From Escherichia coli (lineage in GTDB: Bacteria; Pseudomonadota; Gammaproteobacteria; Enterobacterales; Enterobacteriaceae): a DNA stretch of 46,566 nucleotides. The DNA lies in assembly GCF_003334355.1 (NCBI RefSeq), contig NZ_QOWP01000029.1; one strand, written 5' to 3'. Shown here piece after piece: positions 43,501-45,881 of the stretch (position 1 is the first letter of the stretch; the number at the start of each line of letters is the position of its first letter). Position numbers: made by a program.

Positions 43501-45881
43501 GAAAAACGGCAGGCCAGCGTCTTTTTTCAGACGCGGTAAGACAAAATGTCGAACACACTGAACCATACATCCTCCCGGCAAATTGTCCGGCATTATACTC
43601 ATCGTCAGAAGCGGCGCAAGCATTTGATGCAATATTTTGTCAGCGCAAACGGTTTATTTGAATTATAAGTCAAAATATATGCATTTTTATTTGCTGTGAT
43701 TCTGGAGGGGAACTGTCCTTCGGTATCAATAATTGCAGACATTCCCTGCTTTTTTCTTTTTCACTTTCACGCAATCAGATATGCATTTTATTCCATTCAT
43801 CCGACTTATAGGGCGGAGTGTGAAAACGAACGGCTAACACTATTGCTTACTGCTCAGGGATGCGCGCTATCACTTTAATTTCAAAATCAAAGCCTGCCAG
43901 CCATGTAACACCCACCGCCGTCCAGTTTGGATAAGGTGGGGCGCTAATATTTCATTTTTCACCGTCATGATGTCTTCAAATTGGTTTTCTGGATCGGTAT
44001 GGAAGCTCGTAACATCAATGATATCGTCAAAAGTGCATCCCGCAGCAGCCAGGGTCGCATACAAATTATCAAATGCCAGTCTGACTTGTTGCTGAAAATC
44101 GGGTTCTGGTGTTCCGTCCTCTCGACTTCCTACTTGCCCGGAAACAAACAGCAAATCGCCGGAACGAATAGCCGCAGAATAACGATGCTCAGCATACAGT
44201 GAATGTCGGCCAGCAGGGAAAACAGCGGTTCTTTCTACCATTTGGTTATCCTCAAGATTTACGACATGAACAGAAGAGTTCTCTTTACCGGGAGCCGCTT
44301 TTAGCGGACGACGTGAGTAAACAAAACCCAGACATCATGGATAATGGCTGGGCTTAATTGAGCGTAGTCGGTTATGCGCCAAACGCGCCATCAATGGTAT
44401 GCATCGCGCCGGTAACAAAGCTGGCTTCTGGCCCTGCTAACCATGCGACCATACCAGCGACCTCTTCCGGTTGCCCATGTCTTTTGATAGCCATAAAACT
44501 ATGCAACATATCGCGCATTGGCCCGTTGGCGGGATTAGCGTCGGTATCAATTGGCCCTGGCTGGACGACGTTGATGGTGATCCCACGCGGTCCAAAATCA
44601 CGGGCCAGCCCGCGCGCCATGCCTTGCAGGGCAGATTTGCTGGCGGCATAAGCAGCCATGCCTGCAACAGGCATACGATCGCCATTCACGGAGCCGATGA
44701 TTAAGATGCGCCCGCCTTCGGGCATCTGCCGGGCGGCTTCAACAGAGGCATGATAAGGAGCATGAATATTGATTTTGAAAAGGCGATCAATATCGTCGGC
44801 ATTTAATTCCAGGGCATCGCCAAAGACGCCAATACCTGCATTTACTACCAGAATATCCAATGCGCCACTCTTACGAACGACATCAATGACAGCGTCTCTG
44901 TCAGCACTATCTGTGAATACTGCTATCGCTCCAGTCTCTTGTGCCAGGCGTTCAGCGGCATCTTTCGACCCCGCATAGGTGAATCGTACATTGGCCCCAT
45001 CGGTGACGAAACGACGTACCATAGCGGCACCGATTCCACGGCTGCCACCGAGGATGAGAACTGTCTTACCTGTAAAAGCGCCCATAAGGACTCCTTGATT
45101 TATTATGTAACATGCATTACAAAACTGTTTTAACTTTCTGTCAACAAGTTTTGTAATGGTCACTAAAAAACAATCTCGCGTTCCAGGTCGTCCCAGACGT
45201 TTCGCTCCTGAGCAGGCAGTCTCTGCGGCAAAAGTGCTTTTTCACCAAAAAGGTTTCGATGCTGTTAGTGTTGCTGAAGTTACTGATTATCTTGGTATTA
45301 ACCCCCCGAGCCTCTACGCGGCTTTTGGCAATAAGGCTGGGTTATTTAGCCGTGTACTCAATGAATATGTCGGTACGGAAGCTATTCCGCTTGCCGATAT
45401 TCTTCGTGATGATCGTCCGGTAGGGGAGTGCCTGGCTGAGGTATTAAAAGAAGCGGCGCGCAGATATAGCCAAAACGGCGGCTGCGCTGGCTGTATGGTT
45501 CTTGAAGGCATTCATAGTCATGATCCACAAGCGCGTGATATTGCCGTTCAATATTATCACGCCGCAGAAACGACCATTTATGACTATATCGCCAGGCGGC
45601 ATCCACAAAGCGCACAATGTGTGACTGATTTTATGAGTACCGTGATGTCAGGGCTTTCTGCGAAGGCACGAGAGGGGCACTCCCTCGAACAACTCTGTGC
45701 AACAGCTGCACTGGCGGGGGAAGCGATAAAAACTATTCTCAAGGAGTGATGCTGACCTTGATCCGAAAGGCGGGAACGCGCCTGCCGATAAGTTGTGATA
45801 AGACAATAATTCACGCGTTAAGGCTGGCGGAATTGATCATCTTTTCGTATAACGGTGGAAATGAAACATTGTTTTAATTAA

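What the first reader, a model, noticed from the sequence alone, without database searches (positions are those of the whole stretch)
43930..43960. yjgH carries an apparent 1-bp deletion that replaces the conserved RidA-family C-terminus
The listed ORF ends ...TVKNEILAPHLIQTGRRWVLHGWQALILKLK, which has no resemblance to RidA-family C-termini. Shifting by one base at about 43946 (plus strand gcgctaatat) restores ...APPYPNWTAVGVTWLAGFDFEIKVIARIPEQ and a stop at 43847-43849. That restored tail matches the family pattern that the intact paralog ridA shows in this same window (...PARSCVEVARLPKDVKIEIEAIAV). So yjgH is frameshifted 34 codons before its natural stop, either as a real lesion or as a sequencing error in the short A/T run.
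Basis: seen in the sequence. Interest (0 to 1): 0.5.

Follow-up and report, generated by a model that had tools for sequence, protein, structure and literature searches.

The report
Inherited frameshift pseudogene of yjgH
The small E. coli gene yjgH has lost one base here, which scrambles the last quarter of its protein; the same lesion is inherited in a minority E. coli lineage and is already flagged as a pseudogene in public genomes, so it is real but ordinary.

Summary
On the minus strand, yjgH (43847-44241) has TT where intact alleles have TTT (plus-strand AA at 43946-43947 instead of AAA). Codon 99 changes from Phe to Leu. Twenty-five out-of-frame residues follow, ending at a TGA-TAG pair at 43867-43872. 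The native tail (S100-Q131, 32/32 identical to K-12 YjgH) survives in the -1 frame and ends at the natural stop, 43847-43849.

It is not a sequencing error. The same deletion is in 40 of 5426 complete E. coli genomes from many laboratories, hosts and decades. The exact 123-aa product is on at least 1000 public contigs. NCBI's PGAP marks the identical allele as "frameshifted".

The lost segment holds the family's best-conserved residues (P105, Trp107 at the RidA Arg105 position, Glu121) and the last two beta-strands. The Pfam match stops at model position 93 of 121, and the new tail models at pLDDT about 50-60. I found no slippery site or stimulatory RNA structure for recoding.

The best reading is a null allele of a dispensable Rid7-subfamily gene of unknown function. 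It sits on a haplotype block of at least 9.4 kb that moves among E. coli backgrounds by descent and recombination. Interest is low. In passing: cpdB is doubly disrupted, ridA carries a private A48V change, and the window ends in IS1.

The parts
43847..44241 (-). yjgH pseudogene, full span from the ATG to the natural TAA stop (395 nt here, 396 nt in intact alleles)
   Evidence: Alignment with K-12 b4248 and FCI56 yjgH. PGAP annotates the identical 395-nt span as 'RidA family protein, frameshifted' in 08-00022, NCTC9040 and CT02.
43870..44241 (-). ORF as encoded: 123 codons plus a TGA stop (43870-43872), followed at once by TAG (43867-43869). Residues 1-98 are native YjgH (one substitution against K-12, H61Y).
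   Evidence: Pfam PF01042 matches only model positions 3-93 of 121.
43946..43947 (-). Site of the 1-bp deletion: TT on the coding strand (AA on the plus strand) where intact alleles have TTT. Codon 99 becomes TTA (Leu) instead of TTT (Phe).
   Evidence: single gap column. A 50-mer centred on the site finds 40 genomes. The intact 51-mer finds 3970.
43873..43947 (-). Out-of-frame tail of 25 codons, LAPHLIQTGRRWVLHGWQALILKLK
   Evidence: The AlphaFold2 model of the 123-aa product gives mean pLDDT 57, 49 and 62 for residue blocks 101-110, 111-120 and 121-123, and lacks the native strand 106-111.
43850..43945 (-). Native C-terminal coding sequence, now in the -1 frame: S100-Q131 (SAPPYPNWTAVGVTWLAGFDFEIKVIARIPEQ), followed by the natural stop at 43847-43849
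   Evidence: identical to 1pf5 residues 100-131. It contains the invariant P105 and E121 and the Rid7-signature W107 (PMC4433059). In the intact model it forms strands 106-111 and 120-127 at pLDDT 93-95.

Best explanation
yjgH in this window is a true frameshift pseudogene, in effect a null allele.

Shown: one T of a T3 run in codon 99 is missing. Translation therefore leaves the native frame after Ile98, reads 25 unrelated residues and stops 21 nt before the natural stop. The lost 33 residues carry the two C-terminal beta-strands and the conserved pocket residues of the Rid fold: P105, W107 at the RidA Arg105 position, and E121.

Inferred: the deletion most likely arose once by replication slippage on the Y61 haplotype of yjgH. 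The 123-aa product cannot complete its beta-sheet or build the inter-subunit pocket of the trimer, so it is non-functional and probably unstable.

Shown: the allele is inherited. It lies on a haplotype block that, in this window, runs at least from 37 kb to 46.4 kb and is shared with other carriers. The flanking DNA is mosaic, as expected from ordinary E. coli recombination.

YjgH is the type member of the Rid7 subfamily. A Salmonella Rid7 protein has no imine-hydrolase activity and the subfamily's function is unknown. The locus is missing altogether from about 11% of complete E. coli genomes. Loss is therefore tolerated and needs no special mechanism.
For: - Deletion located by alignment with intact alleles.
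- The restored frame is identical to K-12 YjgH / PDB 1pf5 from S100 to Q131.
- 40 of 5426 complete genomes carry the deletion 50-mer. They include NCTC strains, the probiotic strain G3/10, and isolates from cattle, pig, capybara, genet, food and wastewater. 3970 genomes carry the intact 51-mer.
- The exact 123-aa protein is on at least 1000 contigs and in 3076 index blocks. The same-haplotype intact 131-aa protein is on 116 contigs.
- PGAP annotates the identical allele as 'frameshifted'.
- Pfam PF01042 gives 82.0 bits over model 3-93/121 for the frameshifted form, against 111.8 bits over 3-120/121 for the intact form. NCBIfam TIGR00004 coverage is truncated in the same way.
- Among diverse homologues, P105 and E121 are invariant and V112, L115, I122 and A126 are nearly so.
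- The intact model has strands 106-111 and 120-127 at pLDDT 93-95, and TM 0.93 to 1pf5. The frameshifted model has tail pLDDT 49-62, no strand 106-111, and neighbouring strands shortened from 30-37 and 74-81 to 30-33 and 74-77.
- Haplotype: nine carrier loci are identical to the window across 43682-44887, which spans yjgH, and differ mainly further out. CT02 differs from the window at one position in 37000-46386.
- 602 of 5426 genomes gave no megablast match to the 501-bp locus query.
Against: No read data, transcript data or protein data exist for this genome, so loss of function is inferred from sequence and models and has not been measured. AlphaFold2 is not a stability predictor. The allele is common, at thousands of assemblies, and about ten times more frequent than the intact form of the same haplotype. 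That could be hitch-hiking in a successful lineage, but it is also what a favoured allele would look like. Single origin is inferred from the shared haplotype and was not shown on a genome phylogeny.
Confidence: 0.93

Rival explanations
1. Sequencing or assembly error: the genome really has TTT and the assembly dropped one base of the short homopolymer.
For: Homopolymer indels are a common error type. One complete genome (FCI56) has the same 501-bp haplotype with the extra T.
Against: The run is only 3 bases long. The identical deletion is in 40 complete genomes from unrelated projects and platforms and on at least 1000 contigs. The surrounding 9.4 kb of the window is identical, but for one base, to a carrier genome, so the window sits on the carrier haplotype.
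Confidence: 0.02
2. Programmed -1 ribosomal frameshifting or transcriptional slippage restores full-length YjgH from the deleted allele.
For: The native tail stays fully open and unmutated in the -1 frame. The permissive window between the -1-frame TGA (inside AAT GAA) and the lost conserved residues is only about three codons long.
Against: The codons at the site, GAA ATA TTA, do not form an X XXY YYZ slippery heptamer, and the nearby A5 run leads straight into a -1-frame TGA (read from the sequence). TT is far too short for RNA polymerase slippage. The 106 nt around and downstream of the site fold no better than shuffles (z = -1.17, 27 of 200 shuffles as good). More than 99% of E. coli yjgH alleles are in frame, so no recoding signal has been under selection. 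The intact tail is equally well explained by the youth of the lesion, since 37 of the 40 carriers are 100% identical over 501 bp.
Confidence: 0.02
3. The 123-aa product with the new tail is a functional variant: it either keeps part of the Rid7 role or has gained a new or dominant-negative role. That would explain why the allele is so widespread.
For: The ORF keeps nearly its full length (123 against 131 aa), and 98 native residues still model with pLDDT 82-91. The allele is on at least 1000 contigs against 116 for its intact sister haplotype. It sits in mosaic backgrounds.
Against: The replaced part holds the most conserved residues of the family and two core strands. The new tail models at low confidence. 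It is simply the out-of-frame reading of conserved codons: a singleton homologue on a 1-kb metagenome contig shows the same kind of tail. Frequency can be explained by clonal expansion. The locus is absent from 11% of genomes, which fits neutrality of loss.
Confidence: 0.04

Closest known systems
E. coli K-12 YjgH (b4248, 131 aa; crystal structure PDB 1pf5), type member of the Rid7 'YjgH-like' subfamily of the YjgF/YER057c/UK114 (Rid) family
   Same: Same locus between bdcA and pyrL. Residues 1-98 are identical except H61Y, and the out-of-frame remnant is identical for residues 100-131. The repaired protein models at TM 0.93 to 1pf5.
   Different: One T is missing in codon 99. As encoded, the protein lacks strands 106-111 and 120-127, along with W107 and E121.
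The same frameshifted yjgH allele in RefSeq E. coli genomes (for example 08-00022 CP48_RS26540, NCTC9040 EL149_RS21925, CT02 J6N91_RS20150)
   Same: 100% identical over 501 bp including the deletion, and annotated 'RidA family protein, frameshifted'.
   Different: No difference in the gene itself. The window differs from these genomes in flanking DNA: ridA A48V, an IS1 after tabA, and different haplotypes upstream of about 37 kb.
Salmonella enterica Rid7 (STM1549 / STM14_1869), orthologue of yjgH
   Same: Same subfamily, with Trp in place of the catalytic Arg (PMC4433059). Orthology to yjgH is stated in PMC4350180.
   Different: The Salmonella gene is intact. It showed no imine hydrolysis even at 100 uM, and its deletion gave no growth defect under carbamoyl-phosphate stress (PMC4433059). 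This shows only that loss of a Rid7 gene can be silent in the tested conditions.
RidA, the paralogue in this window (41560-41946, minus strand)
   Same: Same Pfam domain and fold. Its C-terminal motif FPARS...EIEAIAV aligns with YjgH YPNWT...FEIKVIA.
   Different: RidA keeps Arg105 and is intact here, with a private A48V. It is an imine deaminase. Salmonella data indicate that Rid7 cannot replace RidA (PMC4433059); the reverse was not tested.

Membership tests
Rid7 (YjgH-like) subfamily of the Rid / YjgF-YER057c-UK114 family | Full-length Endoribonuclease L-PSP (PF01042) domain | tested here: not met
   As encoded, the match covers model positions 3-93 of 121 at 82.0 bits. The gene is a member by descent, but its product is not a complete domain.
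Rid7 (YjgH-like) subfamily of the Rid / YjgF-YER057c-UK114 family | Trp at the position of RidA/TdcF Arg105, and the conserved Glu (TdcF Glu120) | tested here: not met
   W107 and E121 are encoded only in the -1 frame (43850-43945). The translated ORF has unrelated residues there. The signature is defined in PMC4433059.
Rid7 (YjgH-like) subfamily of the Rid / YjgF-YER057c-UK114 family | Orthologous position and sequence of E. coli yjgH | tested here: met
   Gene order bdcR / bdcA - yjgH - pyrL-pyrB-pyrI - ridA as in K-12. The window and K-12 differ at 6 substitutions plus the deletion over about 500 bp.
Rid7 (YjgH-like) subfamily of the Rid / YjgF-YER057c-UK114 family | Homotrimer with the ligand pocket formed between subunits | not testable with these tools
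   Only monomer models were made. The trimeric organisation and inter-subunit site are taken from PMC4433059. Size-exclusion chromatography or crystallography of the 123-aa product would be needed.
Frameshift pseudogene (real inherited lesion) | Indel relative to intact orthologues, with the downstream native sequence preserved out of frame | tested here: met
   A single 1-bp gap, and 32 of 32 native residues readable in the -1 frame.
Frameshift pseudogene (real inherited lesion) | The same lesion in independent assemblies, which rules out a private sequencing error | tested here: met
   40 complete genomes, at least 1000 contigs and 3076 index blocks, and a PGAP 'frameshifted' flag in three records that I checked.
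Programmed -1 ribosomal frameshift (recoding) site | Slippery X XXY YYZ heptamer in the permissive window | tested here: not met
   The permissive window is GAA ATA TTA, where the tRNAs cannot re-pair in the -1 frame (sequence).
Programmed -1 ribosomal frameshift (recoding) site | Stimulatory downstream RNA structure | tested here: not met
   The fold of 43860-43965 (-) has z = -1.17, and 27 of 200 shuffles fold as well.
Programmed -1 ribosomal frameshift (recoding) site | Conservation of the out-of-frame arrangement across relatives | tested here: not met
   3970 genomes carry the in-frame 51-mer against 40 with the deletion. Homologues in other taxa are in frame.

The most novel reading that the evidence does not exclude
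The yjgH deletion is not neutral decay but a favoured allele. Either loss of the Rid7 protein, or the 123-aa product with its new basic and hydrophobic tail, gives an advantage. That would explain why the allele outnumbers its intact sister haplotype about ten-fold in public assemblies, and why it appears on a haplotype block embedded in different flanking backgrounds. If so, isogenic carrier and repaired strains would offer a phenotype handle on the still unknown function of the Rid7 subfamily.
Probability: 0.05. Interest if true: 0.35.

Novelty: already known. Interest (0 to 1): 0.08.

Why it matters
It matters little for biology. This is one more lineage-specific loss of a dispensable gene of unknown function.

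There are two modest practical points. First, the frameshift barely changes ORF length (123 against 131 aa). ORF callers other than PGAP therefore deposit the product as a normal "RidA / L-PSP" protein (names listed), so it can contaminate family alignments with a spurious C-terminus. Second, natural carriers such as NCTC9040, NCTC9967 and the probiotic strain G3/10 are ready-made yjgH-null strains. Alongside rare same-haplotype intact isolates (FCI56), they could be used to look for a Rid7 phenotype, since none is known at present.

Tried and rejected
- **Sequencing error.** Rejected by allele counts in complete genomes and by the exact-protein look-ups.
- **Programmed frameshift or transcriptional slippage.** No slippery heptamer, a homopolymer of only 2-3 bases, and no significant RNA structure.
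- **An alternative conserved C-terminus.** P0052 (123 aa, 66% identical, tail ...FRTGRRSVLPGLPALPLKSR) looked at first like a second, independent case of the same out-of-frame tail. It is a singleton on a 1086-bp Logan contig, so it is either an assembly error or an isolated pseudogene. The similarity of the tails simply reflects reading the same conserved codons in the same wrong frame.
- **P0017.** This 149-aa protein matches YjgH residues 1-99 and then continues into a sequence that matches an out-of-frame ORF inside bdcA. I took it as a chimeric or rearranged contig and did not pursue it.
- **Finding the window's own genome.** I looked for it among 5426 complete E. coli genomes and found no full match (best 99.7% over 22.6 kb). 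The window is a mosaic of at least three haplotypes.
- **Not attempted.** I did not place the carriers on a genome phylogeny or assign sequence types.

Full report
**1. The observation**

The minus-strand ORF 43870..44241 encodes 123 residues that end ...TVKNEILAPHLIQTGRRWVLHGWQALILKLK. Reading 43847-43951 (-) in the other frame gives NISAPPYPNWTAVGVTWLAGFDFEIKVIARIPEQ and a stop at 43847-43849.

I aligned the region with K-12 MG1655 yjgH (b4248) and with strain FCI56. There is exactly one gap. The coding strand reads GAA ATA TTA GCG here, where intact alleles read GAA ATA TTT AGC GCC. On the plus strand this is AA at 43946-43947 in place of AAA.

The consequences for the reading frame are as follows:
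- Codon 99 changes from Phe to Leu.
- Twenty-five out-of-frame codons follow (43873-43947).
- Translation ends at TGA (43870-43872), with TAG directly after it, 21 nt before the natural TAA.

The only adjustment is that 33 sense codons are lost, or 34 with the stop. From S100 to Q131 the out-of-frame remnant is identical to the crystallised K-12 protein (PDB 1pf5). Chance is therefore not an issue.

**2. Real lesion or error?**

A 501-bp query around the gene finds yjgH in 4824 of 5426 complete E. coli genomes. Thirty-seven of the forty rows listed are 100% identical to the window, deletion included.

I then used a 50-mer centred on the site. It shares no 28-base word with the intact allele, so megablast cannot cross-detect the two forms. 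It finds 40 genomes, and the matching intact 51-mer finds 3970. The remaining roughly 800 yjgH-bearing genomes presumably have nearby SNPs that prevent seeding.

The 40 carriers come from unrelated projects and sources:
- NCTC9040 and NCTC9967
- the probiotic strain G3/10
- an O157:H16 pig isolate
- Japanese bovine isolates
- capybara and genet isolates
- food and wastewater isolates

PGAP annotates the identical allele as "RidA family protein, frameshifted" in the three records that I opened.

The exact 123-aa product is also in the 15-billion-protein collection. The intact 131-aa protein of the same haplotype (Y61) is on 116 contigs. A private sequencing error is therefore excluded, and the deletion is an inherited allele.

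**3. What is lost**

YjgH gives its name to the Rid7 subfamily of the YjgF/YER057c/UK114 (Rid) family. In Rid7 the catalytic arginine of RidA (Arg105) is replaced by tryptophan, and the conserved glutamate is kept (PMC4433059). E. coli has five Rid paralogues, of which one is Rid7 (PMC5619798; PMC5270733).

In YjgH the signature residues are W107 and E121, and both lie after codon 99. In an alignment of the repaired protein with ten homologues of 42-63% identity and with RidA, the conservation pattern is clear:
- Invariant: P105 and E121.
- Nearly invariant: V112, L115, I122 and A126.

The C-terminal segment is thus the best-conserved part of the family.

The domain searches agree. Pfam PF01042 matches model positions 3-120 of 121 in the repaired protein (111.8 bits), but only 3-93 in the encoded one (82.0 bits). 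NCBIfam TIGR00004 behaves the same way.

I also modelled both forms:
- **Repaired protein.** The AlphaFold2 model has mean pLDDT 88.6. Strands 106-111 and 120-127 have pLDDT 93-95. The model superposes on 1pf5 with TM 0.93 and rmsd 1.6 A.
- **Encoded protein.** I trimmed the homologues to the shared 98 residues, so that the alignment could not impose the family fold on the new tail. The tail then scores pLDDT 57, 49 and 62 by block. Strand 106-111 is absent, and the partner strands shrink from 30-37 and 74-81 to 30-33 and 74-77.

These models show that core elements are missing. They do not measure stability.

**4. Mechanism and history (partly inferred)**

A one-base loss in a short T run is the classic product of replication slippage. 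That is inference, not observation.

The lesion most likely arose once, on the Y61 haplotype. That haplotype still exists in intact form (FCI56; 116 contigs).

The block around the deletion can be traced in other carriers:
- Nine carrier loci of 5.5 kb are identical to the window across 43682-44887. Three of them differ at 31-37 positions in the ridA-pyrI-pyrB-mgtA side, 41123-43096.
- Over the whole window, carrier CT02 differs from it at a single base between 37 kb and 46.4 kb, but at 1-3% further left.
- Non-carrier N9 is nearly identical between 20 and 36 kb, and differs at 75 positions (74 substitutions and the yjgH deletion site itself) between 41 and 46.4 kb.

The window is therefore a recombination mosaic in which the deletion rides on a block of at least 9.4 kb. 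This is normal E. coli population structure.

No polar effect is expected. The premature stop lies only 21 nt upstream of the natural one, and pyrL-pyrBI downstream is a separate annotated unit.

Loss seems tolerable for two reasons:
- 602 of 5426 genomes gave no megablast match to the locus.
- The Salmonella Rid7 orthologue showed no imine-hydrolase activity, and its deletion caused no growth defect in the conditions tested (PMC4433059; orthology stated in PMC4350180).

**5. Rivals**

*Recoding.* The only window in which a -1 shift could rescue the protein lies between a -1-frame TGA (inside AAT GAA) and the conserved P105. The codons there, GAA ATA TTA, are not slippery. The A5 run just upstream leads into that TGA. 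TT is too short for transcriptional slippage. The 106 nt around and downstream of the site fold no better than shuffled sequence (z = -1.17). With more than 99% of alleles in frame, no recoding signal can have been maintained.

*A functional neo-C-terminus.* This cannot be formally excluded. However, the tail is just the wrong-frame reading of conserved codons. A look-alike tail in a distant homologue (P0052) turned out to be a singleton on a 1-kb metagenome contig.

**6. Comparison with what is known, novelty and score**

This is the already-annotated frameshifted yjgH allele of a minority E. coli lineage. It accounts for 0.7% of complete genomes, or 0.8% of those that have the gene.

It is a member of the Rid7 family by descent and position. 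Its product, however, fails the family's defining features: a full domain, and the Trp and Glu signature residues.

Nothing about it is categorically new. Novelty is "already known" and interest is about 0.08.

The most novel reading left open is that loss or alteration of YjgH is selected for. I rate this at about 5%. Its main value would be to give a phenotype handle on the function of Rid7, which is still unknown.

**7. Seen in passing**

- **cpdB (7564-9444, minus strand)** carries two lesions. One is a nonsense codon at position 91 (GGA to TGA). The 60-mer containing it is in 141 complete genomes, and PGAP flags it as "internal stop" in MCJCHV-1. The other is a 63-bp in-frame deletion between 12-bp repeats. 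None of the top-ranked genome matches shows it as a contiguous stretch.
- **ridA** has a private A48V change at 41804, found in none of 4722 matching genomes.
- **The window ends 180 bp into an IS1 element** that starts 40 bp after tabA.
- **The chpSB toxin-antitoxin pair** present in CT02 between ytfP and ppa is absent here.
- **Rfam** finds only the expected elements, including the mgtA magnesium riboswitch.

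Noticed in passing
window 7564-9444 (minus strand), cpdB: cpdB is disrupted twice. There is a premature TGA at codon 91 (9172-9174; Gly in CT02). There is also an in-frame 63-bp deletion that removes [21 protein letters not shown], with its junction inside a 12-bp repeat at 8323-8334. The 60-mer containing the stop occurs in 141 complete E. coli genomes, and PGAP flags cpdB as 'internal stop' in MCJCHV-1. For the 63-bp deletion, every top-ranked genome match was split into two pieces 63 bp apart, so it looks private to this genome.
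   Followed up: partly
window 41804 (ridA, 41560-41946 minus strand): A non-synonymous change, RidA A48V. It is the only difference from carrier CT02 between 37 kb and 46.4 kb. All nine other carrier loci have the other base there, and none of 4722 complete genomes matching the 60-mer is identical to it. It is therefore either a private mutation or a base error in the intact Rid paralogue. The equivalent position is variable among YjgH homologues.
   Followed up: partly
window 46387-46566: The window ends 180 bp into an IS1 element (terminal inverted repeat GGTGATGCTGCCAACTTACTGATTTAGTG...), inserted about 40 bp after the tabA stop. Other carriers of the yjgH deletion continue into a yjgL-like gene there, or have IS1 at a different spot (EC0026B, L006). 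The IS1 explains the roughly 147,000 extra BLAST places.
   Followed up: partly
window 1-46386 as a whole: Mosaic ancestry. About 37-46.4 kb is identical to CT02 (a yjgH-deletion carrier). About 20-36 kb is nearly identical to N9 (a non-carrier with intact yjgH). The left 10 kb is 2% from both and carries the cpdB nonsense codon, whose 60-mer is shared with 141 other complete genomes. No complete E. coli genome in the collection matches 24000-46566 better than 99.7%.
   Followed up: partly
window 20040-20169 (between ytfP at 19536-19877 and ppa at 20257-20787): The chpS-chpB toxin-antitoxin pair that CT02 carries between ytfP and ppa (about 634 bp) is absent and is replaced by about 128 bp, as in strain N9.
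   Followed up: no
window 9445-9567, 12919-12976, 13056-13098, 22082-22160, 28323-28400, 38449-38564: Rfam matches above gathering score: ES239 sRNA, STnc450, ES036, two naRNA4 (REP-type) copies, and the Mg2+ riboswitch in the mgtA leader. These are all expected for this E. coli region. No tRNA genes were found.
   Followed up: no
L016 380-751 (Logan SRR29457793 contig, protein P0052); protein P0017: P0052 is a 66%-identical YjgH homologue from another organism with an analogous wrong-frame tail and the same 123-aa length, but it is a singleton on a 1-kb contig. P0017 matches YjgH residues 1-99 and then continues into an out-of-frame reading of bdcA, so it is probably a chimeric contig.
   Followed up: partly
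NZ_CM177011.1 (strain VL40), yjgH region: The intact-allele 51-mer matches only 76% of its length in VL40, and an IS66-family transposase is annotated in the neighbourhood. This hints at an independent disruption of yjgH by an insertion sequence in another lineage.
   Followed up: no
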